NCBI GenBank assembly: GCA_041483855.1
Contig: JBGPGM010000001.1
Span: 1 to 26,069 of the forward strand
Direction: 5' to 3'
DNA from: Phycisphaerae bacterium
Lineage (GTDB): Bacteria; Planctomycetota; Phycisphaerae; Phycisphaerales; UBA1924
Length of the DNA: 26,069 nt
Part shown: in pieces, positions 1,476 through 22,977 of the stretch
How the letters are laid out: the number at the start of each line of letters is the position of its first letter
Numbering within the stretch: position 1 is the first letter of the stretch
Program-made: the position numbers and the translations under genes
The notes under the pieces: model-generated
Databases searched by the model: none
What the model was told of the DNA's origin: nothing
What the model saw: only the letters and a program-made list of their open reading frames with translations

Positions 1476-1589
1476 CGCTTATCTCAATGGCCGGCCCGTG
1501 TGGGACGGCGACCGGACAAGGGCCTGGCCCGGCGCGGATCAGGCGGTCGGATGGTTGGACCCGGACACTACGCATAGGGAGACGCGACG

Positions 1590-2169: not shown

Positions 2170-2208
2170 TGTGTGCGTGTGTGTGTGGAGCTGCGCGGCG
2201 CGGGGGGG
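2170..2208. repeat. Short (GT)n-like tract plus G7 run in the hcp-tagJ spacer
   Basis: tgtgtgcgtgtgtgtgtg at 2170-2187 and ggggggg at 2202-2208, read directly from the sequence. Confidence 0.6.
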
Positions 2209-2254
2209 ACCGTTGATCGGCGCCATGCCCGCGATCGCGTGCAGGAGTTTCCCG

Positions 2255-3118: not shown

Positions 3119-3617
3119 ACTGACCACGCGCGAGCGTCGCCAGCCATGCCTGCTTGACCGCCTGACGGACGATGAATCCAACGTCCAGCAAGAGAGCCGG
3201 GAGCGCCGCGTCATCTCCCTGGCGCAGCTGCGTAAGAGCGTCCTGCGCGACCTGTCCTGGCTGCTCAACACCAGCGCCCGTGCCGACGCCGAGGCCATCA
3301 ACGACTTCCCCCAGGTCGCCACGTCCGTGCTGAACTTCGGGATCCCCGACATGTGCGGGCTGACCGTGTCGAGCATCAGCGCCGTGGACGTCGAGCGGAT
3401 GGTGCTCGAGGCCATCCACCGCTTCGAGCCGCGCATCCTCCGCAAGAGCCTGACCGTCCGCGCCGTGTCCGACCACGAGAAGATGGCGGGCAACGCCGTG
3501 GCCTTCGAGATCAGCGGCATGCTCTGGGCCCAGCCTTTGCCCGAGCAGCTGTACGTCAAGACGGAAGTGGACCTGGAGACCGGCCAGTGCACCGTGGCGG
3601 AGCGCCCCAATGGATAG
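3111..3617 (+). CDS. tssE: T6SS baseplate subunit TssE (gp25-like)
   Basis: Start at ATG 3111 (GGAGGG upstream; 8-bp overlap with tagJ). Motifs PCLLDRLTDD, VLRDLSWLLNT, VLNFGIPD and IHRFEPRI. Confidence 0.95.
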   Translation: MAELTTRERRQPCLLDRLTDDESNVQQESRERRVISLAQLRKSVLRDLSWLLNTSARADAEAINDFPQVATSVLNFGIPDMCGLTVSSISAVDVERMVLEAIHRFEPRILRKSLTVRAVSDHEKMAGNAVAFEISGMLWAQPLPEQLYVKTEVDLETGQCTVAERPNG

Positions 3618-5490
3618 GCGGCTGCTCAGGTACTACAACCGCGAACTGCAGCACATCCGCGAGACCGCCGGCGAGTTCGCCAAGGAGTTCCCCAAGATCG
3701 CCGGCCGGCTCGGCATGGACGGCATGGAGTGCGCCGACCCGTACGTCGAGCGCCTGCTCGAGGGCTTCGCGTTTCTGGCCGCGCGCGTCCAGCTGAAGCT
3801 CGACGCCGAGTTCCCCCGGTTCACGCAGAGCCTGCTCGAGACCGTCTACCCGCACTACCTGGCCCCCACGCCCTCCATGGCCATCGCCCAGTTCAAGCCC
3901 GACCTGGCCGAGGGCAGCCTGGCCGAGGGGTTCGTGCTCAAGCGCGGCCGGGCCCTGCGGAGCACCATCGGCAAGGGCGACCTGACCGCCTGCGACTACC
4001 GTACCGCCCACGATGTCACCATGTTCCCGATCGAGGTGGCGTCCGCCGAGTACCACACCCGCGGGTTGGCCGCGCTGCAGGTCCCCGACATCCCCGGCGT
4101 CAAGGCCGGCATACGGCTGCGCCTCAAGAGCACGGCGGGCCTGACATTCGACAAGATCAAGATGGACCGGCTGGCCTTCTACCTGCACGGCACGGACGAG
4201 ACGCCGATGCGCGTCTATGAGCAGCTGGTGGCCCACACCCGCGCCGTCGTCGTCCAGCCCGTGCGCACCCCCGTCACCTGGCACGAGGTGGCCCCGGGGG
4301 AGGGGGGGGCCGTGCGCCGCCTGGGCTTCCGTGACGACGAGGCGATGCTGCCCTTCGGCGCCCGCTCCTTCCAGGGCTACCGCCTCCTGCACGAGTACTT
4401 CACGCTCCCCCAGCGCTTCCTGTTCGTGGAACTGACCGGCCTGTCCCGCGGCGCCCAGCGCTGCAAGGACACCGAACTGGACATCGTGATCCTGCTCAAG
4501 GAGGCCAACCTGGACCTGGAGAGCGGCTTCGGGCCCTCCATCTTCGTCCCGTTCTGCACGCCCGCCATCAACCTCTTCCACAAGCGCACCGACCGCATCC
4601 ACGTCACCGACCGCTTCAGCGAGTACCAGGTCATCGCGGACCGCACGCGCCCGCTCGACTTCGAGATCTACCAGGTCCTCAACGTCACCGGCTACGGCGA
4701 GGACTCCGAGACCATGCAGGAGTTCCTGCCGTTCTACGCGGCGCGAGACGTGGACCGAGACGGCAGCGGCAGCGGCGCGTACTTCGCCGTCAACCGCGTC
4801 CCCCGCACCCCGTCCAGCCGCGAGGTCCAGCAGGGCCGCCGCTCGTCGTACCCCGGCAGCGAGCTGTACGTCTCCCTGGTGGACGCCGCGGCCGCGCCGT
4901 TCCGCACCGACCTCCGCCAGTTGGGCGTCGAGGCGCTGTGCACGAACCGCGATCTGCCGCTGCGCATGCCGGTCGCGCGCGGGCGCACGGATTTCACCAT
5001 GGAGGAAGGCGCGCCGGTCGAGTCCGTCAAGTGCCTCTCCGGTCCCACGGTCCCGACGCCCTCGTACGCCGAGGGCGAGACCGCCTGGCGCGTCGTGAGC
5101 CACCTGGCCCTGAACTACCACTCGCTCATCGACGCCGACGCCGGGCAGGGCGCCACCGCACTCCGCGACATCCTCAAACTCTATGGCGACTCCGGTGAGG
5201 CCCACATCCGCAAGCAGATCGAAGGCACCAAGTCCATCTCGCACAAGCCCATCACCCGGCGCGCCGCCACGCCGGGCCCCATCGCCTTCGCGCGCGGCCT
5301 GGAGGTCACCGTGACCTTCGACGAGGCCGCCTTCGAGGGCACGGGCGTCTTCGTCCTTGGCGCTGTCCTCGAACAGTTCTTCGCCAAGTACGTGTCCCTC
5401 AACTCGTTCACCGAGACCGTCGTCCGCACGCTCGGTCGCGGGGAGATCATGCGATGGCCGGCGAGAGTGGGTCAGCGTCACATTATCTGA
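3610..5490 (+). CDS. tssF: T6SS baseplate subunit TssF
   Basis: LLRYYNRELQHIRE...EFAKEFPKIAGRL, DPYVERLLEGFAFL, YRLLHEYFTLPQRFLF and CTPAINLF. 626 aa; overlaps tssE and tssG. Confidence 0.97.
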   Translation: MDRRLLRYYNRELQHIRETAGEFAKEFPKIAGRLGMDGMECADPYVERLLEGFAFLAARVQLKLDAEFPRFTQSLLETVYPHYLAPTPSMAIAQFKPDLAEGSLAEGFVLKRGRALRSTIGKGDLTACDYRTAHDVTMFPIEVASAEYHTRGLAALQVPDIPGVKAGIRLRLKSTAGLTFDKIKMDRLAFYLHGTDETPMRVYEQLVAHTRAVVVQPVRTPVTWHEVAPGEGGAVRRLGFRDDEAMLPFGARSFQGYRLLHEYFTLPQRFLFVELTGLSRGAQRCKDTELDIVILLKEANLDLESGFGPSIFVPFCTPAINLFHKRTDRIHVTDRFSEYQVIADRTRPLDFEIYQVLNVTGYGEDSETMQEFLPFYAARDVDRDGSGSGAYFAVNRVPRTPSSREVQQGRRSSYPGSELYVSLVDAAAAPFRTDLRQLGVEALCTNRDLPLRMPVARGRTDFTMEEGAPVESVKCLSGPTVPTPSYAEGETAWRVVSHLALNYHSLIDADAGQGATALRDILKLYGDSGEAHIRKQIEGTKSISHKPITRRAATPGPIAFARGLEVTVTFDEAAFEGTGVFVLGAVLEQFFAKYVSLNSFTETVVRTLGRGEIMRWPARVGQRHII

Positions 5491-6530
5491 CGCAGGACCT
5501 CATCCAGAGACTCCACCAGTCTCCCTTCAGTTTCAACTTCTTCCAGGCCGTGCGCCGGCTCGAGTGCGCGGCCCCGGAGCGCCCGCGCGTCGGCTTCTCC
5601 CAGCGGCTGGCCGACGATCCCGTGCGTTTCTGCCAGGAGCCTTCGCTGGCATTCGCTCCCTCCACGATCTCCGCCGTCCGCCCGGCGGAGGGGGAGGTCG
5701 CGGCCCGGATGTTCGTCCAGTTCATGGGCATGCTGGGCCCCAACGGCCCCCTGCCCCTGCACCTGACCGAGTACATCCGCGACCGCGAGCGCAACCACGC
5801 CGACCCGACCCTCGCCCGCTTCCTGGACGTCTTCAACCACCGGATGGTCAGCCTCTTCTACCGCGCCTGGGCCGCCAGCCAGCAGGCCGTCAACTTCGAG
5901 CGTGGGCCCGCCGACCGCTTCGGCGTCTACTTCGCCAGCCTCTTCGGCTTGGGCATGGATTCCCTGCTCAAGCGCGACTCCGTCGCCGACGTGGCCAAGA
6001 TCCATTACTCCGGCCGGCTCGTCTGCCAGACGCGCCACGCCGAGGGCCTGCGCAGCATCATCCAGGACTACTTCGGCATCCCCACCGACATCCGCGAGTT
6101 CGTCGGTCAGTGGCTCGACTTGCCCTACGACTCCCGGTGCCGCCTGGCCGAAGGCCGCGCCACCGGCCTGATCGGCTTCACCGCCATCGTCGGTCAGCGC
6201 GTCTGGGACTGCCAGCAGAAGTTCAGGCTCACCCTCGGACCCATGCCCTACGCCGACTATGAACGCCTGCTCCCCGGCGGCGGGAGCATCCGGCGCCTGG
6301 CCGACTGGGTCGGCGACTATATTGGCCGCGAAATGGCCTGGGACCTGCACCTGATCCTCAAGGCCGACGAGGTGCCCGCCGTGAGTCTTGGTAGACTCGG
6401 CAGGCTCGGCTGGTCCACCTGGCTCAAGGCCGACCCCGCTCGGCCCTTCGCCAGGGACGCCGACGACCTGGTCCTTAGCCCCGGCTCCATCCAGCGGGCC
6501 GCACAAGCAGCAGTAAGCAGCAAGCAGTAA
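5454..6530 (+). CDS. tssG: T6SS baseplate subunit TssG
   Basis: FNFFQAVRRLE, PSLAFAPS, GMLGPNGPLPLHLTE, FLDVFNHRMVSLFYRAW and RFGVYFASLFGLG. Overlaps the tssF end as usual; exact start codon uncertain. Confidence 0.95.
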   Translation: MAGESGSASHYLTQDLIQRLHQSPFSFNFFQAVRRLECAAPERPRVGFSQRLADDPVRFCQEPSLAFAPSTISAVRPAEGEVAARMFVQFMGMLGPNGPLPLHLTEYIRDRERNHADPTLARFLDVFNHRMVSLFYRAWAASQQAVNFERGPADRFGVYFASLFGLGMDSLLKRDSVADVAKIHYSGRLVCQTRHAEGLRSIIQDYFGIPTDIREFVGQWLDLPYDSRCRLAEGRATGLIGFTAIVGQRVWDCQQKFRLTLGPMPYADYERLLPGGGSIRRLADWVGDYIGREMAWDLHLILKADEVPAVSLGRLGRLGWSTWLKADPARPFARDADDLVLSPGSIQRAAQAAVSSKQ

Positions 6531-6582: not shown

Positions 6583-9324
6583 ATGAGCGAGATCAGCCGT
6601 GTCAAACTGTTCGGCAAACTCAACAGCCTCGGGTACAGGTCCGTCGAGGGGGCGACGGTCTTCTGCAAGCTCCGCGGCAACCCGTACGTCGAGCTCGTGC
6701 ACGTTCTGCACCAGATCCTGCAAGTGCAGGAGTCCGACTTCCATCGCATCATCCGCCACTTCGAGTTGGACCCGGCCCGGCTCGCCGCGGACTTCACCGC
6801 GGCCCTGGACCGCCTGCCGCGCGGTGCCACGTCGATCTCCGACCTGTCGCCGCACCTGGAGGACTCGGTGGAGCGCGGCTGGGTCTACGGCTCGCTGATG
6901 TACGGCGACTCGCAGGTCCGGACCGGTCACCTCGTCCTGGGCATTCTCAAGACGCCGCCGCTCAAGCACGTCCTGCTGGGGATCTCCGGCCAGTTCGCCA
7001 AGATCAAGGAGGACGAACTGGCCGACGATTTCCACAAGATCGTCGCCGGCTCGCCGGAAGACGCTCTGCGGGCCACCGACGGCTCGATGGTTGGCGGCGG
7101 TGCCGGGGCCGCCCCCGGCGAGGCCAGCGGCGCCATGGCCCCCGCCCAGATGGGCAAGCAGGAGGCGCTGGGCAAGTACACGGTGGACCTGACGGACAAG
7201 GCCCGCAAGGGCGAGATCGACCCCATCGTTGGCCGCGACGAGGAGATCCGCCAGGCCGTTGACATCCTCATGCGCCGCCGCCAGAACAACCCCATCCTCA
7301 CCGGCGAGGCGGGCGTGGGCAAGACGGCCGTGGTCGAGGGCTTTGCCCTGCGCCTGGTCGCCGGCGACGTGCCCCCGGCCCTCAAGGACGTCGCTCTCAA
7401 GACCCTCGATCTGGGCTTGCTCCAGGCCGGCGCCAGCATGAAGGGCGAGTTCGAGAATCGCTTGCGCCAGGTCATCGAGGAGGTCCAGGCCTCCCCCAAG
7501 CCCATCATCCTCTTCATAGACGAGGCCCACCAGCTCATCGGCGCCGGCGGCGCCGCCGGCCAGGGCGATGCCGCCAACCTCCTCAAGCCCGCGCTGGCCC
7601 GCGGCACCCTGCGGACCATCGCCGCCACCACCGCCGCCGAATACCGCAAGTACTTCGAGAAGGACCCGGCCCTGACCCGCCGCTTCCAGGTCATCAAGAT
7701 CGACGAGCCCAGCGAGGCCAAGGCCCTGCTGATGATGCGCGGCATGGCCAGCACGCTCGAAAAGCACCATCGCGTGCAGATCCTGGACGAGGGCCTCGAG
7801 GCCGCGGTCAAACTCTCCCACCGCTACATCCCCGCGCGCCAACTGCCCGACAAGGCCGTCAGCCTGATCGACACCGCCTGCGCCCGCGTTGCCATCGGCC
7901 AGCACGCCGTCCCCGCCGAGGTGGACGACTGCCGCCGGCTCATCCAGGCCTTGCAGACGGAACTGGAGATCATCGACCGCGAGCAGGCCGTCGGCGTGGA
8001 CCACAACGCACGCCGGACCGAGACGATCGCCAGGCTTGACACCGAGCGCGCCCGCCTCAAGGACCTCGAACAGCACTGGGGCGACGAGAAGGAACTGGTC
8101 GCCAAGATCCTGGACATCCGCGCCAAGCTCCGCGGCGCGATCTCCCCGGTAGAGGGCACCGGCAGCAAGACCGAGGCCGCGGCCAAGGGTGAGGCCCCCC
8201 CGCCCGCCAAGATCGTGGAGCTGTCCGAGTCCCAGCGGGCGGCGTGCCTGGCGGAACTCAAGACGCTCCAGGGAAAGCTGACCCAGATGCAGGGCGACCG
8301 CCCGCTCATCCTCCCCAGCGTGGACGCCAGCGCGGTCTCCTCGGTCGTGGCGGACTGGACGGGCATCCCGGTGGGCCGGATGGTCAAGAACGAGGTCGAG
8401 TCGGTGCTGCAGCTGGCCGACACGCTCGAGAAGCGGATCATCGGCCAGCGTCACGCCCTGGACGCCATCGCCAAGCGCATCCGCACCAGCCGCGCAGGCC
8501 TGGACAACCCCGGCAAGCCCATCGGCGTGTTCATGTTCGCCGGCACGAGCGGCACGGGCAAGACGGAGACCGCCCTGGCCCTGGCCGAAACGCTCTACGG
8601 CGGCGAGCACAACGTCATCACCATCAACATGTCCGAATACCAGGAGGCGCACAAGGTCGCCACGCTCATGGGCTCGCCGCCGGGCTACGTCGGCTACGGC
8701 GATGGCGGCGTACTGACCGAGGCGGTGCGGCGCCGCCCCTACTCGGTCGTCCTGCTCGACGAGGTGGAGAAGGCCCACCCCGACGTGCACGAGATCTTCT
8801 TCCAGGTCTTCGACAAGGGGTTCATGAAGGACTCCGAAGGGCGCGACATCAACTTCAAGAACACGATCATCCTCCTGACCACCAACGCCGGGTCGGACCT
8901 GATCATGAACATGTGCAAGGACCCCGACCTCATGCCCGACCCGGACGGGATCGCCAAGGCCCTGCGCGAGCCCCTTCTCAAGATCTTCCCCGCCGCGCTG
9001 CTGGGCCGACTGGTCGTCATCCCGTTCTACCCCCTCAGCGACGACATGCTCAAGAACATCATCCGGCTCCAGCTGGGGCGGATCCAGAGGCGGGTCAAGC
9101 AGAACCAGAAGGTGCCCTTCACCTACGACGATGAGGTGGTCAAGCTGATCCTGAGCCGATGTACCGAGCGGGAGAGCGGCGGGCGCATGGTGGACGCCAT
9201 CCTCACGCACACGCTCCTGCCGGCCATCAGCACCGAGTACCTCAACCGCCTGCTCCAGGGCGGCCGGATCAACCGGGTCCACATCAGCGTCCACGACAGC
9301 GACTTCGCCTACGCCTTCGACTGA
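6583..9324 (+). CDS. clpV: T6SS AAA+ ATPase ClpV/TssH
   Basis: ClpV-type N-terminus (KLFGKLN...CKLRGNPYVELVH). Walker A GEAGVGKT and GTSGTGKT, Walker B LFIDEAH and LLDEVEKAH. C-terminal ESGGRMVDAILTHTLLP. Confidence 0.97.
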   Translation: MSEISRVKLFGKLNSLGYRSVEGATVFCKLRGNPYVELVHVLHQILQVQESDFHRIIRHFELDPARLAADFTAALDRLPRGATSISDLSPHLEDSVERGWVYGSLMYGDSQVRTGHLVLGILKTPPLKHVLLGISGQFAKIKEDELADDFHKIVAGSPEDALRATDGSMVGGGAGAAPGEASGAMAPAQMGKQEALGKYTVDLTDKARKGEIDPIVGRDEEIRQAVDILMRRRQNNPILTGEAGVGKTAVVEGFALRLVAGDVPPALKDVALKTLDLGLLQAGASMKGEFENRLRQVIEEVQASPKPIILFIDEAHQLIGAGGAAGQGDAANLLKPALARGTLRTIAATTAAEYRKYFEKDPALTRRFQVIKIDEPSEAKALLMMRGMASTLEKHHRVQILDEGLEAAVKLSHRYIPARQLPDKAVSLIDTACARVAIGQHAVPAEVDDCRRLIQALQTELEIIDREQAVGVDHNARRTETIARLDTERARLKDLEQHWGDEKELVAKILDIRAKLRGAISPVEGTGSKTEAAAKGEAPPPAKIVELSESQRAACLAELKTLQGKLTQMQGDRPLILPSVDASAVSSVVADWTGIPVGRMVKNEVESVLQLADTLEKRIIGQRHALDAIAKRIRTSRAGLDNPGKPIGVFMFAGTSGTGKTETALALAETLYGGEHNVITINMSEYQEAHKVATLMGSPPGYVGYGDGGVLTEAVRRRPYSVVLLDEVEKAHPDVHEIFFQVFDKGFMKDSEGRDINFKNTIILLTTNAGSDLIMNMCKDPDLMPDPDGIAKALREPLLKIFPAALLGRLVVIPFYPLSDDMLKNIIRLQLGRIQRRVKQNQKVPFTYDDEVVKLILSRCTERESGGRMVDAILTHTLLPAISTEYLNRLLQGGRINRVHISVHDSDFAYAFD

Positions 9325-9428: not shown

Positions 9429-9437
9429 TGGTATAGT
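9429..9437 (+). promoter_or_regulatory. Extended -10 promoter candidate upstream of vgrG (TG-G-TATAGT)
   Basis: tggtatagt at 9429-9437, 27 bp before the vgrG ATG, with SD-like GGGAGAG at 9452-9458. An AT-rich patch in otherwise very GC-rich DNA. Confidence 0.55.
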
Positions 9438-9464
9438 GATCGGGCACCGCCGGGAGAGTCGCCA

Positions 9465-11570
9465 ATGCCCAGGACCCAGGAACACCGCGCTATCGCCATC
9501 GCGACGCCTCTCGACGACGACGTGCTCCTGCTGCGGAGCATGACCGCCCACGAGCAGCTCAGCCGCCTCTTCACGATCGAACTGGACCTGCTCAGCGAGG
9601 ACCACGAGATCAAGTTCGACGACCTGCTCGGCCAGAACTGCACCGTCCGGGTCCAGCAGCAGGGCGGCGGCACGCGCTTCTTCAACGGCTTCATCAGCCG
9701 CTTCGTCCAGACCACCAAGGGCGGCGGCATGGCCCTCTACCGCGCCACGCTCGTCCCCTGGCTGTGGATGCTGACCCGCAACGCCGACTGCCGCATCTTC
9801 CAGGAGATGACCGTCCCCGACATCATCAAGCAGGTCTTCCGCGACCACGGATTCTCCGACTTCGACGACACGCTGCAGGAGACCTACCGCAAGTGGGTCT
9901 ACTGCGTGCAGTACCGCGAGACGGACTTCAACTTCGTCAGCCGCCTGATGGAACAGGAGGGGATCTACTACTACTTTCGGCACGAGGACGGCAAGCACGT
10001 GATGGTGCTGTGCGACTCCTCCAGCAAGCACAAGGCCGCGCCCGGCTATGACAAGATTATCTACCGGCAGCCGGACAAGGTCCTCACCGACCGCGAGTTC
10101 ATCCACGACTGGTCCCACGAGCAGCAGGTCCGCACCGGCACCTACGTCCACCGCGACTTCAACTTCACCACCCCCAAGCAGAGCCTGGAGGCCAAGTCCA
10201 AGATCGACCGCAAGCACGCCGCGGCCTCCTTCGAGGTCTACGACTACCCGGGCGAGTACGACGTGGTCGCCGACGGCGAGAAAGCCGCCAAGGTCCGCAT
10301 CGAGGAGTTGCACACACAGTTCATCCAGGTGCGCGGCGAATCCGACTCGCGGGGTATCTCGGTTGGCTCCACCTTCCGGCTGGATCGGTACCCGCGCGCC
10401 GACCAGTGCGAGGTCGATTGGCTCGTGACGTCCACGGTCTGCCGGGCCCGCTCGGACGAGTTCGAGTCGCACGCCGCGGTGGGCGACTCGGCCCCGCGCT
10501 TCCTCTGTTCGTTCACCGTAATGGACAACAAGGAACAGTTCCGCCCCGCCCGCATCACACCCAAGCCCGTGATCTACGGCCCCCAGACCGCCTTTGTGGT
10601 CGGCAAGTCCGGCGAGGAGATCTGGACCGACGAGCACAGCCGCGTCAAGGTGCAGTTCCACTGGGACCGCGACGGCGAGGCCAACGAGAAGTCCTCGTGT
10701 TGGATCCGGGTCTCGCAGGCCTGGGCGGGCAAGAAGTGGGGGGCGATCTTCATCCCGAGGATCGGACACGAGGTGATCGTCGAGTTCCTCGAGGGCGACC
10801 CGGACCGGCCGATCATCACCGGCCGAGTCTACAACGCCGACACCAAGCCCCCCTACGACCTGCCCGCCCACGCGACGATGTCCACCCTCAAGTCGCTTAC
10901 GAGCAAGGGCGGCGGCGGTTTCAACGAGTTCCGCTTCGAGGACAAGAAGGGCGAGGAGCAGGTCTTCCTGCACGGCGAGAGGAACCTGGACATCCGCGTC
11001 AAGGCCGACCGCTTCGAGAACATCGGGCACGACCGCCACCTGGTCGTCGAGAACAAGAAGTTCGAGCACGTCAAGGTGGACCGGCACGAGAAGGTGGACA
11101 ACGACCACGTCGAGGTGATCGGCAACGACCGCAACCTCCAGGTCAAGGGCAAGGAAGCGATCGAGATCTCGGGCAGCCATTCCAACACCGTCGGCGGCGA
11201 CGTGATCGAGATCTTCAAGGCCAAGCACCACGAGGCGACAACCGCCGACTACTACCTCGTGGCGGACAACGTGGCCATCGAGGGCAAGACCAACATCACC
11301 CTGTACGTCGGCGACTCCTACATCGCCATCAACGCCGACGGCATCAAGATCGCCACGACCGGCAAGATCGTGCTCCAGTCCTCGGACGACACGTCGATCA
11401 AGTCCGACATGAACTTCAAGACCGAGTCCGGCATGGAGACCTCGGTGAAGGCCGGGACGGACCTGAAGCTCGAGGGCGGCGTCACCGCGGAGATGAAGTC
11501 CCCCAACACCACCGTCAAGGCGGACGCGACGCTCACGCTTAAGGGCAGCGCCTCCGTGATGATCAACTGA
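9465..11570 (+). CDS. vgrG: T6SS spike protein VgrG/TssI (gp27-gp5 core plus long beta-helix; no fused toxin domain)
   Basis: Start moved to ATG 9465. Motifs YCVQYRETDFNFVSRLMEQEGIYYYF, EIWTDEHSRVKVQFHWDR, CWIRVSQAWAG, IPRIGHEVIVEFLEGDPDRPIITGRVYN and NEFRFEDKKGEEQVFLHGERN. Ends in a repetitive beta-strand needle (...KGSASVMIN). Confidence 0.97.
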   Translation: MPRTQEHRAIAIATPLDDDVLLLRSMTAHEQLSRLFTIELDLLSEDHEIKFDDLLGQNCTVRVQQQGGGTRFFNGFISRFVQTTKGGGMALYRATLVPWLWMLTRNADCRIFQEMTVPDIIKQVFRDHGFSDFDDTLQETYRKWVYCVQYRETDFNFVSRLMEQEGIYYYFRHEDGKHVMVLCDSSSKHKAAPGYDKIIYRQPDKVLTDREFIHDWSHEQQVRTGTYVHRDFNFTTPKQSLEAKSKIDRKHAAASFEVYDYPGEYDVVADGEKAAKVRIEELHTQFIQVRGESDSRGISVGSTFRLDRYPRADQCEVDWLVTSTVCRARSDEFESHAAVGDSAPRFLCSFTVMDNKEQFRPARITPKPVIYGPQTAFVVGKSGEEIWTDEHSRVKVQFHWDRDGEANEKSSCWIRVSQAWAGKKWGAIFIPRIGHEVIVEFLEGDPDRPIITGRVYNADTKPPYDLPAHATMSTLKSLTSKGGGGFNEFRFEDKKGEEQVFLHGERNLDIRVKADRFENIGHDRHLVVENKKFEHVKVDRHEKVDNDHVEVIGNDRNLQVKGKEAIEISGSHSNTVGGDVIEIFKAKHHEATTADYYLVADNVAIEGKTNITLYVGDSYIAINADGIKIATTGKIVLQSSDDTSIKSDMNFKTESGMETSVKAGTDLKLEGGVTAEMKSPNTTVKADATLTLKGSASVMIN

Positions 11571-11590
11571 CCGTCGAGGATCCGCGACCC

Positions 11591-11980
11591 ATGGAGAAGA
11601 AGCCCGGAACAGCCCTGACCGCCGTCGCCCCCGCCGCGGTCACCGATGCGCTGGACGCCGACTCGGCCGACCCCGGCGAGGTGGCCGAGGTCAAGGCCGA
11701 GCAGCGCAAGAAGCAATCGGGCAAGTACGGCTCCAAGCAGGTCCCCGCCTACAAGCCGCCGGAGGACAAGGAAAAGAAGACGACGTGGATCGAGATCGAA
11801 CTGGTAGACCGCGACGGCAACCCGATCCCGAGCGAGCCCTACCGCATCGAGGACCCCGAGGGCCGCATCGTGGACGGAACGCTCGACGAGAAGGGATTCG
11901 CCCACCGGGACTGGATCGTCCCCGGCACCTGCAAGATCAGTTTCCCGAGGCTCGACCAGGACGCCTGGGCCAAGGCCTGA
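11591..11980 (+). CDS. Small vgrG-linked protein with C-terminal transthyretin/prealbumin-like beta domain (putative adaptor)
   Basis: SD GAGGA at 11576-11580; 20 bp after the vgrG stop; strong C/G-ending codons. Ala/Pro/Lys linker, then WIEIELVDRDGNPIPSEPYRIEDPEGRIVDGTLDEKG..GTCKISFP, the pattern of TTR-like/carboxypeptidase-regulatory-like domains. Confidence 0.75.
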   Translation: MEKKPGTALTAVAPAAVTDALDADSADPGEVAEVKAEQRKKQSGKYGSKQVPAYKPPEDKEKKTTWIEIELVDRDGNPIPSEPYRIEDPEGRIVDGTLDEKGFAHRDWIVPGTCKISFPRLDQDAWAKA

Positions 11981-12103
11981 TCCGGCCCGCCCGCGTCCGG
12001 GGACGCCCGACGATCGCGCCGCACCGCATCGGCGAACCCCGACCCTCTGCCGCGACGGGCTCGCTCCCCGGCGAGCCAGCCACCCTCAACGGACGCCCAA
12101 CCC

Positions 12104-12847
12104 ATGGCCGAGACCAAGAAGCCCAAGGACGACGTCAACAACAGCCCCGTCAACACGGGCATCGAGAACGACCTCGCCGACGAGAACGGGGAGTTCTACT
12201 ACTCCGCGCACGTGGTCAGCCAGGGCGAGTGCCTCATCCGGGTGTCCGCCGAGAACGGCTACTGGTGGGAGACTCTGTGGAACCACGCGGACAACGCCGA
12301 GCTGAAGAAGGGCCGGAAGAACCCCAACGTCCTGCTCCCGGAGGACCGCATCCGCGTGCCCAAGGTCCGGCTCAAGACCGAGGACGGCGCCACGGAACAG
12401 AAGCACAAGTTCAAGTGCAAGATCGAGCCGTCGATCCTGCGGCTGCGCGTCAGCGTCTTCGATGAGCCGCTCGCCAACAAGCCGTACAAGCTCGAGGTCG
12501 AGGGCAAACTGTACACCGGTACCACCAACGGCGACGGCCAGATCGAGCAGAAGGTCCCCTGCCGCGCCCGCGCCGGCCACCTGGTCGTCGGCGAGCCCCC
12601 CGAGGAGCGAGAGTACGACCTGCAGATCGGCGACCTGGACCCGCTCGACACGATCGCAGGCATCAAGGAGCGCCTCAACAACCTCGGCTACGCGGCCGGG
12701 CCCATCTGCGATTGGGACTATTTCAACAACTGGCCGGTCCCCGCCTTCCGCAAGGCCCTCCGCAAGTTCCAGCTCAACCACGACCTCAAGATCACCGGCA
12801 TCGTCGACAAGATGACCAAGGACGCCCTCCTCAAGACCGGCATCTGA
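12104..12847 (+). CDS. LysM-like + TTR-like + peptidoglycan-binding (PG_binding_1-like) protein, no signal peptide
   Basis: LysM-like HVVSQGECLIRVSAENG...LWNHADNAELKKGRKNPNVLLPEDRIRVP (about 12209-12361). Beta domain LRLRV..DEPLANKPYKLEVEG...GTTNGDG (about 12434-12625). PGBD-like IKERLNNLGY...ALRKFQLNHDLKITGIVDKMT (about 12638-12835). Confidence 0.8.
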   Translation: MAETKKPKDDVNNSPVNTGIENDLADENGEFYYSAHVVSQGECLIRVSAENGYWWETLWNHADNAELKKGRKNPNVLLPEDRIRVPKVRLKTEDGATEQKHKFKCKIEPSILRLRVSVFDEPLANKPYKLEVEGKLYTGTTNGDGQIEQKVPCRARAGHLVVGEPPEEREYDLQIGDLDPLDTIAGIKERLNNLGYAAGPICDWDYFNNWPVPAFRKALRKFQLNHDLKITGIVDKMTKDALLKTGI

Positions 12848-12890
12848 GCCGGTGCCCGTCCCCTCCCCTCCCTGTCCGCGGAGCCCCTGT

Positions 12891-15752
12891 ATGCTCGCAC
12901 GCGTTGCCAAGAACGACTACGACAACGAGAACGGCAAGACGTTCACTCCCCTGGACCGGCAGAGCTACCTGCCGATCGTGGATGCGCACTGCCACGTCTT
13001 CGGCCAGAGCCTCTCCGTCGGCGACAAGATCCGGGACGACTCCGACGCGACCCACGTGACGTTCATCAAGGGCGGCTCGGGCGGCTCGGTCAAGAAGCTC
13101 TTCAAGCCCACTGTCCTGATCAAGAAGCCCCCGACCCAGGTCCAGAGCCTCGTCGGCGACGCCAAGTCCCTGGCGGACAAGGCCCCGCCCGGCCTCATGG
13201 ACAAGGCCAAGGGCGCCGCGTCTTCTTTCCTCTCCTCCGCCGGCAAGGCGATGCCCAGCGTGAAGAAGGAGGACCTCGAGAAGGCGCAGAGCGTCGCCAA
13301 GGAGTTCGCCGACCGTCAGATCGGCGAGGTCCTCCAGAAGGTATACGCCCGCGGCGTCATCGAACTCCCACCGTCGGAGTGGCCGCCGCAGGCCACCACC
13401 ACGCTGGTCGGCGACCGCGTGTTCTTCGTCGTGATGCTCTCGGAACGCGCCAAGATCCATTCCTACGGGATCGGCTCCGAGAAGGCGGACCTCACCGAGA
13501 TCGCCTGGCTGGTCGGCCACATGGAGGCCGGGTTCGCCAAGTTCATCAAGTACTTCTTCGGTGATGACGGCGAGAACGCCGGCATCGTCCTCAACGGCGT
13601 GCCCAAGGAGGGAGGGACCGCCGTCGTCCCCCTCCTCCTGGACATGGGCTACACGCCGCTGGACGTCCCGCTGCCGCTGTTGGGCACGCTGGCCGCGTGG
13701 CTCGTCGGCCTGCCCAAGCCCGCGCCGGACCCGGACGGCTACTACAAGGCCGGCAAGGAGTTCCTCTGGTTCGACCGCAAGGGGCTCCAGTACACCTACG
13801 AGACGCTGGCCGACGTCGCCAGTCAGTACCCCTACCAGATCTGGCCGATGGTCCCCTTTGACCCGCGCCGGCCCGACGCGCTGAGCCACGTGAAGAAGGC
13901 TGTCAACGAGTTCGCCTTCCCCGGCGTCAAGCTCTACTCCCGCTGCGGCTGGGCACCCTACAACAACGCCGACGTCCACGGCCCCACGCACGGGCCCAAG
14001 CTCGATCAGCGCCTCGACGCCTTCTATGCCTACGCCGTTCAGGAAGACCTGCCCGTTCTCAACCACACCAGCCCGACGGGTTTCCCGCCCAACGCGGCCC
14101 TGGCCCTGCCCAAGGGCTATGACGGAGCGGATATGTACCACAGCCGCCTGCTCTACCCCGGGCGCGTCGGGATCGGACCGCTGCCGCTGGGGGCTCTGGA
14201 GGGGATCCTCAAGGACGTCGGGCAAGGAATGCTCGATGTCGCCGGGCTCCCGCCTCCCGAGGAACTGCTCAAGCAGGCCAAGGCCACGGGCTCGAAGATG
14301 CTCCAGGACGTGGGCGACCTGGCCAACCAGGCCAAGGATTTGAGCCAGGAGCACTTCGACTCCCTCGTGAGCGCGCTGGACAAGGCCCGGGCCAAGGGGC
14401 CGGCCGAGATCGAGCGACTCACCAGCCTCGCCGATCCCTCCAAACTCTCCGTGCAGGCCGTCCGCGACCAGCTCTCCGAGTACATTGCTCCCGAAACGCT
14501 CAGCAAGATCGCCGACAAGTTCAACCCCAAGCAGTTTTTCGGCCTCGCGTCCTGCATCAAGGGCCCGGACTTCCATCCCGTCAAGAACATGATCGACCCG
14601 CAGAAGCAGAAGGAGAACGCCGCCATCAACGCCGAGCAGCGCCGCAGCCCGCTCAAGGTCCTCTTCGACGCCTGCTGCAAGATCCTGGCCTTGATGTCGT
14701 GCTACGACGCGGCCAAGTACTGCCACTACGTCCAGCACACCGTCTCGCCCTACGCCTGGGAACCCGTCCTCAAGAAGTACCCCAAGCTCCGCCTCGACCT
14801 GGCCCACTGCGGGTCCGAGAAGAGCGTGATCACCCACTATGGCCTGGACAAGGACGAGCACGAAATCGGCAAGAATCCTACCGCCGCGGCCAAGAAGACG
14901 TGCGACGTCCTCAAGGATCAGATCAAGGACCTGCACGCGAACCCGTTCGTCGCCACCGGCGCACGCTTCAAGGACTACCTTTTCGCCCAGTGCGCCAAGG
15001 AACGCGGCATCATCGCCCTCTTCCAATACTTCGTTACCAGCGAGGCCACCATCGACCCCGCCAAGAAGGCCGCGGATAAGGTCACCGAGATGCTCATGAA
15101 GGTCCTGCCCGCGGTCTTCGCCAAGGTGCTCAAGCAGTTCACTCTCCAGCAGATCTACGATGGCGTGCGGGTCCAGGTGCCGGAGGTCCTCAAGGAAGAG
15201 CTGTGGCAGCAGTGGCTGGAGGACTGGGCCGACAAGTTCCCCAAGGACTGGATCACCAAGATCAAGGAACTGTGCGGCAAGTACGACAACGTCTATACGG
15301 ACATCTCCTACCTGACGGGCACCAGCAACGATGTCCACAAGCTACTGCTCGCCAAGATCGCCGACGATGCTTGCCCCGACACGCATCGGCGCGAGGGGTC
15401 CGACGCCGGCGTGGAAGACGAGAGCACCGACGGCTCCACCAAGGAGACCATCTTCGCCGAGCGACTCATGATCGGCACCGACTGGTACATGACCGCCATG
15501 GACAATGTCGGCCCCGACACTTTCTGGGAGCGCACCAAGTCCGTCGTCAACACCGACCACCCGCTCTGGGAGCGCTGGGCCAGCCGCAACTGCATCAACT
15601 TCATGAATCTCGGCAAGCGGATGGACGCGATGGAGAAGTGGTACAAGACCCGCAACATCCCTGACTCCAGCCGTCCCTCCTGGTGGCCAGCCGTCAAGCA
15701 CTACTACAAGGTCAAGGAGGAGAAGGGCGCCGCGGCCGCGGCCAAGGTTTGA
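12891..15752 (+). CDS. Very large amidohydrolase-superfamily (Amidohydro_2-like) protein with multiple insertions; putative T6SS cargo effector
   Basis: Start moved to ATG 12891 (GGAG upstream). Motifs in canonical order: IVDAHCH (HxH at 12987-12995), PFDPRR, GVKLY (13923), PVLNH (H at 14064), KYPKLRLDLAHCG (H at 14805), NVYTDISY (15288) and LMIGTDWY (D at 15480). 953 aa. The effector role is inferred from position only. Confidence 0.8.
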   Translation: MLARVAKNDYDNENGKTFTPLDRQSYLPIVDAHCHVFGQSLSVGDKIRDDSDATHVTFIKGGSGGSVKKLFKPTVLIKKPPTQVQSLVGDAKSLADKAPPGLMDKAKGAASSFLSSAGKAMPSVKKEDLEKAQSVAKEFADRQIGEVLQKVYARGVIELPPSEWPPQATTTLVGDRVFFVVMLSERAKIHSYGIGSEKADLTEIAWLVGHMEAGFAKFIKYFFGDDGENAGIVLNGVPKEGGTAVVPLLLDMGYTPLDVPLPLLGTLAAWLVGLPKPAPDPDGYYKAGKEFLWFDRKGLQYTYETLADVASQYPYQIWPMVPFDPRRPDALSHVKKAVNEFAFPGVKLYSRCGWAPYNNADVHGPTHGPKLDQRLDAFYAYAVQEDLPVLNHTSPTGFPPNAALALPKGYDGADMYHSRLLYPGRVGIGPLPLGALEGILKDVGQGMLDVAGLPPPEELLKQAKATGSKMLQDVGDLANQAKDLSQEHFDSLVSALDKARAKGPAEIERLTSLADPSKLSVQAVRDQLSEYIAPETLSKIADKFNPKQFFGLASCIKGPDFHPVKNMIDPQKQKENAAINAEQRRSPLKVLFDACCKILALMSCYDAAKYCHYVQHTVSPYAWEPVLKKYPKLRLDLAHCGSEKSVITHYGLDKDEHEIGKNPTAAAKKTCDVLKDQIKDLHANPFVATGARFKDYLFAQCAKERGIIALFQYFVTSEATIDPAKKAADKVTEMLMKVLPAVFAKVLKQFTLQQIYDGVRVQVPEVLKEELWQQWLEDWADKFPKDWITKIKELCGKYDNVYTDISYLTGTSNDVHKLLLAKIADDACPDTHRREGSDAGVEDESTDGSTKETIFAERLMIGTDWYMTAMDNVGPDTFWERTKSVVNTDHPLWERWASRNCINFMNLGKRMDAMEKWYKTRNIPDSSRPSWWPAVKHYYKVKEEKGAAAAAKV

Positions 15753-15874: not shown

Positions 15875-16636
15875 ATGCCACCCTCACCCGTCCCCATCGC
15901 CGCCCCACGACCTGCCACCAGGCTCTACGACGGCGACGCCGACCTGCTCGTGCGCTCCGAGCAGTTCCCCGACCGTATCAGCCTGCTCAGTGCCGGGCCC
16001 GCCGGCGCGGGCGCCGCCTCCAGCACGCCCGGCGCCGAACGAATCCGCATCCTCTGGGGCCAGGACATGCTGCGCGACATCCTCGATGGGCGCTACCGGT
16101 CCGTCGTGTGCGGCGTTAACGACGCCGACAACTCCCACGGCGTTATCGCCCAACTCGTCAGCCTTGTTCCCACCAGCCAGTGGTCCGCGCGGGCGGTCAC
16201 CTCGTTCGCCAGGATGTTCCAGGAATCGGTGGCCGTGCACGCCGCGCACGACCGCGAGCCGTATGTCCTGAAATACGATCTCGATAGCCTGCTGATCCTG
16301 GCGCTGCTGCGCCCCAAGGGGCGGGACCATTTCACGATCGAGGATCTGTCGCGCGGTTTCGCCACGATCAGCCGGATGCTGGCGGACCGGCGCGAGCGGC
16401 TCCCCGTCGCGAGCGTTTCCTTCCTCAACGCCCGCGCCAACCGCCTTCTCGCCTCCGAGCCCGGCAAGCAGGCCGCCGAGCCTTCCTTCGAATCCGTCCT
16501 CCGCACCATGTACGACGCCGGGTTCCGCGGCGACGTCTACGCGGCCCCTGCCATGTGGCAGTTCGCCCACGTCGGTGTCTTCCCCTCCTACCCCTTCCCC
16601 GAGGGACTGGAACGGATGCGCAGCGGCAGTTCCTGA
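15875..16636 (+). CDS. Hypothetical protein, possible divergent macrodomain (DarG/TARG1-like) fold
   Basis: Start at ATG 15875 (GGAG 7 nt upstream). RIRILWGQDML...VVCGVNDADNSHGVIAQL and ...LPVASVSFLNARANRL follow the strand/loop pattern of macrodomains. The CDS is well supported; the fold is tentative. Confidence 0.6.
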   Translation: MPPSPVPIAAPRPATRLYDGDADLLVRSEQFPDRISLLSAGPAGAGAASSTPGAERIRILWGQDMLRDILDGRYRSVVCGVNDADNSHGVIAQLVSLVPTSQWSARAVTSFARMFQESVAVHAAHDREPYVLKYDLDSLLILALLRPKGRDHFTIEDLSRGFATISRMLADRRERLPVASVSFLNARANRLLASEPGKQAAEPSFESVLRTMYDAGFRGDVYAAPAMWQFAHVGVFPSYPFPEGLERMRSGSS

Positions 16637-20669: not shown

Positions 20670-20739
20670 TCAGGCCGGCGGGACGGCGCCGAAAGTGTGG
20701 ATGGCCGGGCGGAACGCGCCCGATGAACTGGACGTGCTC

Positions 20740-22874: not shown

Positions 22875-22977
22875 GGGGTAGATCGGGGCCCCGGCGGCGC
22901 CCCCCGGCTGCGCCGCCGAGTTCATGATAGAGGATGAGCCCTATAGGCGGGCCGTGTCAAGGGTGCGAGTCCATCGC

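What the first reader, a model, noticed from the sequence alone, without database searches (positions are those of the whole stretch)
9429..15752. Candidate new T6SS cargo module: VgrG + detached TTR-like adaptor + LysM/PGBD partner + giant amidohydrolase
Seen: four co-oriented genes behind an internal extended -10. None has a signal peptide, all are Lys-rich with similar codon style, and the two middle genes share a TTR-like beta module. Established: TTR-like domains at VgrG C-termini recruit cargo effectors (e.g. EAEC VgrG1-Tle1), and genes just downstream of vgrG are often effectors. Inference: the block encodes a multi-part payload in which a metal-dependent hydrolase is loaded on the spike via stand-alone TTR-like proteins, possibly with a cell-wall-binding subunit positioning it. 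I do not recognise a characterised T6SS effector of this architecture.
Basis: partly seen in the sequence, partly recalled or inferred. Interest (0 to 1): 0.85.

Follow-up and report, generated by a model that had tools for sequence, protein, structure and literature searches.

The report
Split T6SS spike-adaptor-amidohydrolase cargo module
The four genes form a type VI secretion payload unit: a spike protein, its detached effector-docking domain, a LysM/peptidoglycan-binding loading protein and a metal-dependent hydrolase toxin. Each part has a published precedent, so this is a new variant of a known design, not a new kind of system.

Summary
At 9465-15752 (+), directly after TssC-Hcp-TagJ-TssE-TssF-TssG-ClpV, lie four genes:
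- VgrG.
- A 129-aa protein (g2).
- A 247-aa LysM-like/beta-module/PG_binding_1 protein (g3).
- A 953-aa Amidohydro_2 protein (g4).

All are Lys-rich, and none shows a signal-peptide-like or transmembrane hydrophobic segment by hydropathy.

g2 is the transthyretin-like (TTR) effector-docking domain of VgrG. It is fused to the VgrG C-terminus in 48 of 80 related loci, and its best sequence and fold match is the TTR domain of EAEC VgrG1, which binds Tle1. g3 carries the same beta module (hhalign 94.6%). It sits right after VgrG in 55 of 71 assessable loci and is followed by varied enzymes, as an adaptor would be.

The novelty claim fails on two counts:
- g4 is a remote homologue, with all metal-site motifs, of a Myxococcus LysM-amidohydrolase with the gene order and architecture published for TsxE, a genetically proven T6SS toxin.
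- Stand-alone LysM proteins have been shown to bridge VgrG and effector.

What is new is the three-way split, the wide spread of the g3 family, and the lack of an adjacent immunity gene. Substrate and secretion are untested.

Interest is about 0.38.

The parts
3..1475 (+). TssC (sheath large subunit); 5' end runs off the contig
   Evidence: Pfam VipB 4e-133 and VipB_2 1e-44
1590..2090 (+). Hcp tube protein
   Evidence: Pfam T6SS_HCP 9e-35. The overlapping ORF 1487-1966 has no match.
2171..3118 (+). ImpE/TagJ-like TPR accessory protein
   Evidence: Pfam ImpE 1e-45 and TPR_19
2964..3617 (+). TssE (gp25-like baseplate wedge); true start probably lies further downstream in this ORF
   Evidence: Pfam GPW_gp25 1e-20 on residues 88-191
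3610..5490 (+). TssF
   Evidence: Pfam T6SS_TssF 1e-232
5454..6530 (+). TssG
   Evidence: Pfam T6SS_TssG 1e-106
6583..9324 (+). ClpV (TssH) AAA+ disassembly ATPase
   Evidence: Pfam AAA_2, AAA_lid_9, AAA, ClpB_D2-small and Clp_N
9429..9437 (+). Extended -10-like motif TGGTATAGT in the 140-nt clpV-vgrG gap
   Evidence: Only match to TGNTATANT in the window; expected 0.10, and 10 of 100 shuffles have at least one. No -35/-10 pair found. Function untested.
9465..11570 (+). VgrG/TssI spike, 701 aa, without a C-terminal TTR domain
   Evidence: Phage_GPD, Phage_base_V and Gp5_trimer_C. TIGR03361 668 bits. The TTR profile A5 hits only the g2 ORF in the window.
11591..11980 (+). g2: stand-alone VgrG C-terminal extension. 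It has a conserved linker motif (residues ~14-58) and a TTR-like beta-sandwich (residues ~62-120, nt ~11774-11950).
   Evidence: Fused to VgrG in 48 of 80 loci and detached in 7 of them, plus L001, L003, L023, L096, L097 and L109. PDB profile hit to the EAEC VgrG1 TTR, E 4.7e-4. AF2 beta part has pLDDT ~94. Top Foldseek hit 6sjl_A, probability 0.99.
12104..12847 (+). g3: LysM-like domain (residues ~36-88), TTR-like beta module (~108-150) and PG_binding_1 (187-242). Proposed loading adaptor or co-effector.
   Evidence: PG_binding_1 2e-7. Pfam LysM is recorded for 11 listed homologues. The family profile hits LysM and PGBD structures. hhalign to g2 gives 94.6%. It lies right after VgrG in 55 of 71 assessable loci.
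12891..15752 (+). g4: 953-aa Amidohydro_2-type metal-dependent hydrolase with large variable insertions. Proposed cargo effector, TsxE-like. An alternative GTG start lies at 12852.
   Evidence: Amidohydro_2 28.6 bits. Motifs DAHCH31-35, GVKLY345, NHTSP391, LAHC637, YTDIS802 and GTDW862 are conserved across the family and in the TsxE-like P0208. BLASTP to P0208 gives three collinear blocks. Foldseek gives local hits to ACMSD, LigW and LigJ.
15875..16636 (+). Boundary marker, not part of the module: a conserved hypothetical protein found across Phycisphaerae
   Evidence: More than 1100 homologous clusters at 65-78% identity, many labelled Phycisphaerae. Lys 1.2%. No homologue next to any other module.

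Best explanation
Genes 9465-15752 form the cargo end of a T6SS cluster in a Phycisphaerae metagenome-assembled genome (MAG).

**Proposed parts**
- VgrG forms the spike.
- g2 is the transthyretin-like (TTR) effector-docking domain that most related VgrGs carry at their C-terminus. Here it is a separate 129-aa protein that keeps the conserved linker segment.
- g3 (LysM-like + TTR-like + PG_binding_1) is a loading adaptor or co-effector. It links the spike/TTR to whatever enzyme is encoded next.
- g4 is that enzyme: a metal-dependent hydrolase of the Amidohydro_2 type, remotely homologous to the Myxococcus TsxE-type toxin. It would be carried on the spike and fired into neighbouring cells.

**Shown here**
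- Domain identities and the T6SS context.
- Fusion and fission relationships: g2 with the VgrG C-terminus, the g3-type LysM with the effector N-terminus, and PG_binding_1 with an effector C-terminus.
- A polymorphic cargo slot.
- Conserved metal-site motifs.

**Inferred**
- The physical chain VgrG-g2-g3-g4, and secretion.
- The target, most likely the peptidoglycan layer or its precursors. I put this at about 0.4. It rests on the PG_binding_1 and LysM partners and on the cell rounding reported for TsxE.
For: **1. T6SS context.** TssC, Hcp, TagJ, TssE, TssF, TssG and ClpV lie directly upstream.

**2. g2 is a detached VgrG TTR.**
- The full g2 profile maps to the last ~130 residues of VgrG in 48 of 80 loci. 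It is a separate ORF in 7 more and in L001, L003, L096, L097 and L109.
- The profile hits the EAEC VgrG1 TTR at residues 783-832, E 4.7e-4, and the VgrG2b TTR region.
- The AF2 model's top Foldseek hit is 6sjl_A (VgrG1-Tle1), probability 0.99.
- VgrG1 truncated at residue 778 is the construct used as the TTR deletion, and Tle1 docks on the TTR by fold complementation (PMC10715212).

**3. g3 behaves as an adaptor.**
- 215 species genomes encode it.
- In 55 of 71 assessable loci it directly follows VgrG/TTR.
- The next gene varies: a Pfam-less ~670-aa family in 39 of 72 loci, otherwise Metallophos, M10/M12/M43-like peptidases, a metallo-beta-lactamase fold, Het-C+PGBD, or the amidohydrolase.
- In the window's own taxonomic family, the slot between VgrG-TTR-g3 and glnA-III holds the amidohydrolase in G455 and an M43-like protein in G459.
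- Experimental precedent: the stand-alone LysM protein Kalk_10460 is required for VgrG-effector co-immunoprecipitation (PMC10673891).

**4. Rosetta-stone links between g3 and g4.**
- The g3-type LysM is fused to the N-terminus of 8 amidohydrolase relatives. PG_binding_1 is fused to the C-terminus of P0008.
- A g3 gene precedes the amidohydrolase in all 9 loci of the window's close relatives.

**5. g4 resembles TsxE.**
- The A1 profile finds the Myxococcus hansupus protein P0208 at 5e-26. BLASTP gives three collinear blocks at E 6e-10, 1e-8 and 4e-7.
- All six motifs are shared.
- P0208 sits in a VgrG-[LysM-AH2]-393-aa arrangement, as published for vgrG2-tsxE-tsxI. That VgrG also ends in a TTR-like module.

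**6. Sporadic distribution, as expected of accessory cargo.** The amidohydrolase was found in 1 of 400 other sampled genomes of the phylum.
Against: - No interaction, secretion or toxicity data exist for any of these four proteins.
- The Amidohydro_2 call on g4 alone is marginal (28.6 against 26.4 bits, one stretch).
- The g4 AF2 model is poor (mean pLDDT 63.7; residues 1-300 mostly below 50). Foldseek gave only local ~100-column matches at E 0.3-1.
- No immunity gene lies next to g4. The next gene is a conserved Phycisphaerae housekeeping-type protein. The same lack is seen in L002, L003/L109 and L008.
- No PAAR gene is in the window or the assembled genome, but the MAG is only 59% complete.
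- Two family contexts lack T6SS genes: three tandem paralogues behind an AraC regulator, and the Humisphaera locus.
- How a detached TTR would attach to VgrG is unknown.
- Identity of P0208 to MXAN_5572 itself was not checked.
Confidence: 0.72

Rival explanations
1. g3 is mainly a delivered targeting subunit. It would travel with g4 into the prey periplasm and hold the enzyme on peptidoglycan through LysM and PG_binding_1, with no part in loading the spike. This is compatible with the best explanation, since a co-effector could do both.
For: PG_binding_1 is significant, and a second copy is fused to the amidohydrolase itself in P0008. Several alternative cargo proteins are peptidase-like or carry their own PG_binding_1. 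TsxE-intoxicated cells round up.
Against: g3 also carries the TTR-like module shared with the VgrG C-terminus. It precedes cargo with no obvious cell-wall link, such as Metallophos, a metallo-beta-lactamase fold, and the helical ~670-aa family. A LysM domain was shown to mediate VgrG binding.
Confidence: 0.35
2. g3 and g4 are not weapons. They would be a housekeeping cell-wall remodelling pair that opens the producer's own peptidoglycan for T6SS assembly, like TagX or MltE in other systems.
For: They carry peptidoglycan-binding domains, lie inside a T6SS cluster, and have no adjacent immunity gene.
Against: None of the proteins has a signal-peptide-like or membrane segment, so they have no route to the producer's periplasm. 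The slot after g3 is polymorphic between close relatives. The amidohydrolase is absent from most T6SS clusters that have g3: none of the 80 loci has it. The homologous TsxE-type protein is a proven toxin.
Confidence: 0.06
3. g4 acts on a soluble cytoplasmic or non-bacterial target, for example a nucleotide, a cofactor or a cell-wall precursor, or on a eukaryotic or other target that the producer lacks. LysM and PG_binding_1 would then serve only for loading. This would explain the missing immunity gene.
For: No immunity gene is seen in at least four independent loci. Characterised Amidohydro_2 enzymes act on small molecules such as ACMSD, LigW, LigJ and LigI substrates, and these are the only fold matches. 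Some homologues carry apolipoprotein-like helical inserts.
Against: PG_binding_1 is fused directly to one amidohydrolase. TsxE has a cognate immunity protein and causes cell rounding. Immunity genes may simply lie elsewhere in an incomplete MAG.
Confidence: 0.25

Closest known systems
TsxE/TsxI of Myxococcus xanthus (MXAN_5572/5571), downstream of orphan vgrG2 (Troselj et al. 2018, PMC5801462)
   Same: It is an amidohydrolase-2 effector encoded just after a vgrG and is associated with a LysM domain. g4 shares all metal-site motifs and three collinear similarity blocks with the M. hansupus protein P0208, which has the published TsxE gene order and architecture. That VgrG also ends in a TTR-like module.
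   Different: In TsxE the LysM is fused to the enzyme; here it lies in a separate protein that also has TTR-like and PG_binding_1 domains. g4 is larger (953 against 672 aa) with big insertions, and is only ~28% identical in the conserved blocks. No TsxI-like gene follows g4.
Stand-alone LysM loading protein of Ketobacter alkanivorans GI5 (Kalk_10460), and the LysM and PG_binding_1 vgrG-locus domain families (Wang et al. 2023, PMC10673891)
   Same: A non-toxic LysM protein is encoded between vgrG and the effector and is needed for VgrG-effector binding. The same domains occur stand-alone, fused to the VgrG C-terminus, or fused to the toxin N-terminus. This is the pattern found here.
   Different: g3 combines LysM, a TTR-like module and PG_binding_1 in one protein. 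That paper reported PG_binding_1 only in gammaproteobacterial families, whereas g3 is common in Acidobacteriota, Planctomycetota, Desulfobacterota and Myxococcota. Homology of g3 to Kalk_10460 was not tested.
C-terminal TTR domain of EAEC VgrG1, which docks Tle1 (PDB 6SJL/6SK0), and the TTR-like region of P. aeruginosa VgrG2b (6H56)
   Same: These are the best sequence-profile and fold matches of g2. The domain hangs on a flexible linker after the gp5 needle and binds cargo.
   Different: In the window the domain is a separate polypeptide, so it must bind VgrG non-covalently. The downstream cargo is not a Tle1-type lipase.
Classical T6SS adaptors/chaperones (DUF4123/Tap-1/TEC, DUF1795/Eag, DUF2169)
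   Same: They are small genes placed between vgrG and a variable effector, and one accessory family pairs with many effector types.
   Different: There is no sequence relationship; none of these Pfam families was detected in the window. g3 is built from LysM, TTR and PGBD domains.

Membership tests
VgrG/TssI spike | gp27-like hub, OB-fold and gp5-like beta-helix domains | tested here: met
   Phage_GPD 2e-106, Phage_base_V 1e-15, Gp5_trimer_C 1e-31; TIGR03361 668 bits against a cut-off of 186
VgrG/TssI spike | Encoded with T6SS core genes | tested here: met
   TssC, Hcp, TssE, TssF, TssG and ClpV lie directly upstream on the same strand
VgrG C-terminal TTR (transthyretin-like) cargo-docking domain | Sequence relationship to a TTR domain of a characterised VgrG | tested here: met
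   Profile A5 hits 6sjl_A residues 783-832, E 4.7e-4, and 6h56_A, E 3.8e-3. The TTR begins after residue 778.
VgrG C-terminal TTR (transthyretin-like) cargo-docking domain | Small beta-sandwich fold | tested here: met
   In the AF2 model, residues 62-120 form five strands at pLDDT ~94. Top Foldseek hit is 6sjl_A, probability 0.99, E 7.7e-3, followed by CnaB and macroglobulin-type sandwiches.
VgrG C-terminal TTR (transthyretin-like) cargo-docking domain | Covalently attached to the VgrG C-terminus | tested here: not met
   In the window it is a separate ORF with its own ATG, 20 nt after the vgrG stop and in another frame. It is fused in 48 of 80 homologous loci.
VgrG C-terminal TTR (transthyretin-like) cargo-docking domain | Binds the effector or adaptor | not testable with these tools
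   No multimer prediction or binding assay was available
T6SS LysM-type loading protein/co-effector (Wang et al. 2023) | Contains a LysM domain | tested here: inconclusive
   The window protein has no Pfam LysM hit at E <= 0.1. Pfam LysM is recorded for 11 listed homologues. The family profile hits LysM structures only weakly: 9g8s_T 4.7e-3, with LytE, SafA and MltD at 0.04-0.2.
T6SS LysM-type loading protein/co-effector (Wang et al. 2023) | Encoded between vgrG and a variable effector | tested here: met
   55 of 71 assessable loci. Downstream genes fall into 24 clusters.
T6SS LysM-type loading protein/co-effector (Wang et al. 2023) | The same domain also occurs fused to the effector N-terminus | tested here: met
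   The g3 LysM profile hits the N-termini of P0162, P0171, P0173, P0175, P0176, P0180, P0208 and P0251, and of the L096 613-aa protein
T6SS LysM-type loading protein/co-effector (Wang et al. 2023) | Required for VgrG-effector binding; homologous to Kalk_10460 | not tested
PG_binding_1 domain proteins | Pfam PF01471 above its gathering score | tested here: met
   31.3 bits against a cut-off of 23 on residues 187-242. PDB profile hits to the PGBDs of CtpB, SleB and an L,D-transpeptidase.
Amidohydrolase superfamily, Amidohydro_2 (PF04909) | Pfam match above its gathering score | tested here: met
   28.6 bits against 26.4, so marginal, with one stretch at residues 317-413. PF04909 is precomputed for 10 of 12 homologues.
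Amidohydrolase superfamily, Amidohydro_2 (PF04909) | Metal ligands: HxH on strand 1, His on strands 5 and 6, Asp on strand 8 | tested here: met
   DAHCH31-35, H392, H639 and D864 are conserved across the 12-member family. A DxHxH motif is present in all 12, although MAFFT misaligned it in four. Assignment to particular strands is inferred.
Amidohydrolase superfamily, Amidohydro_2 (PF04909) | (beta/alpha)8 barrel fold | tested here: inconclusive
   The AF2 model has mean pLDDT 63.7. Foldseek finds only ~100-130-column local matches to ACMSD, LigW, LigJ and LigI (probability 0.8-0.99, E 0.3-1).
TsxE-type T6SS amidohydrolase effector | Homologous to TsxE | tested here: met
   Against the TsxE-like M. 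hansupus protein P0208: profile E 5e-26 and BLASTP blocks at 6e-10, 1e-8 and 4e-7. MXAN_5572 itself was not compared.
TsxE-type T6SS amidohydrolase effector | LysM fused to the enzyme | tested here: not met
   g4 has no LysM; the LysM lies in the separate g3
TsxE-type T6SS amidohydrolase effector | Cognate immunity gene immediately downstream | tested here: not met
   The next gene is a core-like protein conserved across Phycisphaerae. No TsxI-like sequence is in the window.
TsxE-type T6SS amidohydrolase effector | T6SS-dependent killing | not testable with these tools
   Needs competition assays
DUF4123 / DUF1795 / DUF2169 adaptors | Pfam match to one of these families | tested here: not met
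   No such hit for g2, g3 or g4 at E <= 0.1

The most novel reading that the evidence does not exclude
The TTR module (fused or detached) plus the LysM-TTR-PG_binding_1 protein may form a widespread, so far undescribed modular loading system for T6SSs outside the Proteobacteria. It would accept many unrelated cargo enzymes. Within it, the giant amidohydrolases would be a toxin family with a new cell-envelope chemistry that needs no adjacent immunity gene, for instance because the producers lack the target bond.
Probability: 0.25. Interest if true: 0.6.

Novelty: new variant of a known kind. Interest (0 to 1): 0.38.

Why it matters
**Scope of a known mechanism.** LysM-assisted effector loading has been shown in two proteobacteria. 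Here the same logic appears in at least 215 species genomes, including Acidobacteriota, Planctomycetota, Desulfobacterota, Myxococcota and Verrucomicrobiota. The VgrG TTR docking domain can also work as a separate gene.

**A practical handle.** 'VgrG (+TTR) then g3' marks the next gene as probable cargo. This flags:
- a Pfam-less ~670-aa family that is the commonest partner;
- several metallo-enzyme families.

**An open biochemical question.** TsxE-type amidohydrolases are proven toxins with unknown chemistry. The 12 close relatives of g4 aligned here pin down the conserved metal-site residues to mutate. The repeated absence of an immunity gene is a concrete puzzle about their target.

Tried and rejected
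**1. Downstream ORF 15683/15875-16636 as the immunity gene: rejected.**
- It has no Pfam or NCBIfam match.
- It has no homologue near any other module.
- It belongs to a family of more than 1100 clusters at 65-78% identity across Phycisphaerae.

**2. PAAR, DUF6931, a TsxI-like protein and the Hydrogenedentes 112-aa protein: none found in the window**. PF05488 was also not found in the 59%-complete genome.

**3. Sequence search of the g4 profile against PDB:** only noise.

**4. Whole-protein fold search of g4:** only local amidohydrolase matches, because the model is poor.

**5. First attempt to scan genomes with the 24-sequence g3 alignment:** failed for lack of a conserved stretch. It worked with a tighter 10-sequence alignment.

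**6. Homology between the commonest cargo family after g3 (~670 aa) and g4:** none detected in either direction by hmmsearch.

**7. The vgrG/g2 split as a frameshift artefact: rejected.**
- g2 has its own ATG, preceded by GAGGA.
- The split recurs in at least 12 independent loci.

**8. Horizontal-transfer signal from composition:** GC3 of the four genes matches the neighbouring genes. The lower GC comes from Lys, Asp and Glu content, so no claim is made.

Full report
**1. What is in the window**

The window is a whole 26,069-bp contig of a 59%-complete metagenome-assembled genome (MAG). The gene after the module is 65-78% identical to proteins mostly labelled Phycisphaerae, so the organism is probably a member of that class of Planctomycetota.

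The left half is a T6SS cluster on the + strand:

| Gene | Coordinates |
|---|---|
| TssC | 3-1475 |
| Hcp | 1590-2090 |
| ImpE/TagJ-like | 2171-3118 |
| TssE | within 2964-3617 |
| TssF | 3610-5490 |
| TssG | 5454-6530 |
| ClpV | 6583-9324 |

The four genes of the finding follow:

| Gene | Coordinates | Length | Main call |
|---|---|---|---|
| VgrG | 9465-11570 | 701 aa | TIGR03361, 668 bits |
| g2 | 11591-11980 | 129 aa | no Pfam family |
| g3 | 12104-12847 | 247 aa | PG_binding_1 at residues 187-242 |
| g4 | 12891-15752 | 953 aa | Amidohydro_2, 28.6 bits against a cut-off of 26.4 |

**2. Check of the stated observations**

- All four genes are co-oriented.
- The TGGTATAGT motif at 9429-9437 is real and unique in the window. 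It is only weakly above chance (expected 0.10; 10 of 100 shuffles have at least one). No -35/-10 pair was found.
- Lys content is 9-11% in g2-g4 and 6.6% in VgrG, against 1-3% in TssF, TssG, DinB and the next gene. GC3 is uniformly high.
- No N-terminal or internal hydrophobic segment was found. A dedicated signal-peptide predictor was not available.
- The shared beta module of g2 and g3 is supported by profile-profile comparison: 94.6% probability, E 7e-8.

**3. g2 is a detached VgrG TTR domain**

A profile of g2 and its homologues maps to the last ~130 residues of the VgrG ORF in 48 of the 80 best g3-containing loci from species-representative genomes. It is a separate ORF right after vgrG in 7 of them. 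It is also separate in other loci that carry the amidohydrolase (L001, L003, L096, L097, L109).

The 50-sequence profile hits the C-terminal residues 783-832 of EAEC VgrG1 (6sjl_A, E 4.7e-4) and the TTR-like region of VgrG2b. The AlphaFold model has a confident five-strand sandwich at pLDDT ~94. Its top Foldseek match is the VgrG1-Tle1 complex, probability 0.99.

In EAEC the TTR begins after residue 778, hangs on a flexible linker, and binds the Tle1 N-terminal strand by fold complementation (PMC10715212). g2 keeps the conserved linker segment that precedes the sandwich (invariant P14, A23, D24, D27-G29 and others). I infer that this segment is what ties it to the needle.

**4. g3 behaves like an adaptor or co-effector, not an effector or immunity protein**

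The g3 family has an N-terminal LysM-like domain, a TTR-like module and a C-terminal PG_binding_1. It is encoded in 215 of the ~185,000 species genomes scanned. These are mostly Acidobacteriota, Planctomycetota, Desulfobacterota and Myxococcota, with some Gammaproteobacteria and Verrucomicrobiota.

Of 71 loci with enough upstream sequence, 55 have VgrG (with fused or detached TTR) immediately upstream. Five more lie in a T6SS context.

The gene after g3 is not conserved. The downstream genes fall into 24 clusters:
- 39 of 72 belong to one Pfam-less, helix-rich ~670-aa family.
- The rest include Metallophos, M10/M12/M43-like metallopeptidases, a metallo-beta-lactamase fold and a Het-C+PG_binding_1 protein.
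- A PAAR gene often follows.

Within the window's own taxonomic family the cargo slot differs between genomes:
- G455 has VgrG-TTR-g3-amidohydrolase-glnA(III).
- G459 has VgrG-TTR-g3, a short LysM protein, an M43-like protein and a 314-aa ORF, then glnA(III).
- G463 has a fused TTR and a reprolysin-like cargo.

One accessory gene paired with a polymorphic slot is the signature of a loading factor.

**5. g4 and its family**

A word-seeded search found only 12 clusters. An exhaustive profile search found 58 representatives at E <= 1e-30 and 1269 at E <= 1e-10.

The 12 close relatives share six motifs. Positions are those of the 953-aa protein:
- DxHxH (D31, H33, H35)
- GVKLY (K347)
- NHTSP (H392)
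- LAHC (H639)
- YTDIS (D804)
- GTDW (D864)

This is the ligand pattern of the amidohydrolase superfamily. Assigning each motif to a barrel strand is my inference. Between the motifs lie large, lineage-specific insertions. Some are apolipoprotein-like helices of about 500 residues, and others are beta-rich repeats.

The structure model is poor over the first 300 residues. It gives only local matches to ACMSD, LigW, LigJ and LigI. The barrel is therefore inferred, not shown.

**6.

| Context | Loci |
|---|---|
| VgrG-TTR-[PAAR]-g3-amidohydrolase | window, L001, L003/4 (=L109 type), L096, L097 |
| g3-amidohydrolase beside TssK/TssL/TssM | two Hydrogenedentes lineages |
| VgrG-[LysM-amidohydrolase]-393 aa | Myxococcus hansupus |
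| TTR-g3-amidohydrolase, no T6SS gene in the available flank | L002, L008 |
| g3-amidohydrolase on a short contig | one (L011/L012) |
| No T6SS link | three tandem paralogues behind an AraC gene; Humisphaera borealis |

The refutation criterion, that homologues mostly occur without T6SS genes, is therefore not met. The sample is small.

A g3 gene precedes the amidohydrolase in all nine loci of the close subfamily. The g3-type LysM is fused to the N-terminus of eight more distant relatives, and PG_binding_1 is fused to the C-terminus of one.

**7. Comparison with what is known**

- Troselj et al. 2018 showed that M. xanthus TsxE (LysM + amidohydrolase 2), encoded after orphan vgrG2, kills siblings lacking TsxI in a T6SS-dependent way. 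Targets round up.
- P0208, the M. hansupus protein with the gene order and architecture published for TsxE, is detectably homologous to g4 and shares every motif.
- Wang et al. 2023 catalogued LysM and PG_binding_1 among six domain families in vgrG loci. These occur stand-alone, fused to the VgrG C-terminus, or fused to toxin N-termini. They showed that a stand-alone LysM protein is needed for VgrG-effector co-immunoprecipitation.

The window holds a split version of a known design.

**8. What remains new or unexplained**

- The TTR domain occurs as a free-standing gene, and recurrently so.
- The LysM-TTR-PG_binding_1 combination is unusual and abundant outside the Proteobacteria. The 2023 survey reported PG_binding_1 only in gammaproteobacterial families.
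- No immunity gene lies next to g4 here, nor in L002, L003/L109 or L008.
- The substrate is unknown.
- Some loci carry tandem 'TTR + LysM-effector' modules (L015, L019, L096).

**9. Verdict**

The novelty is overstated: this is a new variant of a known kind, of moderate interest.

Noticed in passing
L016:10520-12481, L031:8423-10441, L039:10631-12622 and 36 other loci: The commonest gene after g3 (39 of 72 loci, mostly Acidobacteriota) is a ~650-700-aa, helix-rich, Lys/Ala-rich protein. It has one hydrophobic stretch and no Pfam match, and a PAAR gene usually follows it. It may be an undescribed T6SS cargo family.
   Followed up: partly
window 15875-16636 (+): A 253-aa protein with no Pfam or NCBIfam match has more than 1100 homologous clusters at 65-78% identity, many labelled Phycisphaerae. 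It looks like a conserved core gene of unknown function.
   Followed up: partly
ENA ERZ23498364 contig holding P0287 (no DNA available): Three tandem amidohydrolase paralogues (858, 859 and 845 aa) lie behind an AraC-type regulator. No T6SS gene and no g3 gene is nearby.
   Followed up: no
L098:10001-15200 (Humisphaera borealis CP063458.1): A 1052-aa LysM-amidohydrolase is followed by a ClpV-like AAA+ protein and six Pfam-less genes, with no canonical T6SS genes in 23 kb. This may be a different delivery context.
   Followed up: no
L096:12762-16470; L015:5436-5834; L019:12947-13348: A second stand-alone TTR gene follows the first cargo gene. In L096 it heads a second module: TTR, a 613-aa protein with an N-terminal LysM, a 328-aa protein, then PAAR. 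Cargo modules can therefore be stacked in tandem.
   Followed up: partly
L051:1840-2568; L073:964-1509 (-); L082:6116-6673 (-): Some proteins carry two or three TTR-like modules in tandem. In two Polyangiales loci they are encoded divergently from g3.
   Followed up: no
L001:6820-7784; L097:8270-9383: A DUF6931 gene followed by a PAAR gene sits directly after the amidohydrolase in two loci. This suggests that DUF6931 is a PAAR-associated accessory protein.
   Followed up: no
L005:12167-12505 (-); L006:3381-3719 (-): In the Hydrogenedentes loci a conserved 112-aa gene (69% identity between lineages) is encoded convergently, right after the amidohydrolase. It is the only recurrent candidate for an immunity gene seen in this subfamily.
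   Followed up: partly
window 22924-25926 (+): A 1000-aa ORF has no Pfam match at E <= 1. It lies downstream of a SpoIID-domain gene (20695-22197).
   Followed up: no
window 1487-2090: Two overlapping ORFs are present. Only the second (1590-2090) is Hcp. The first (1487-1966) has no match and is probably spurious.
   Followed up: yes
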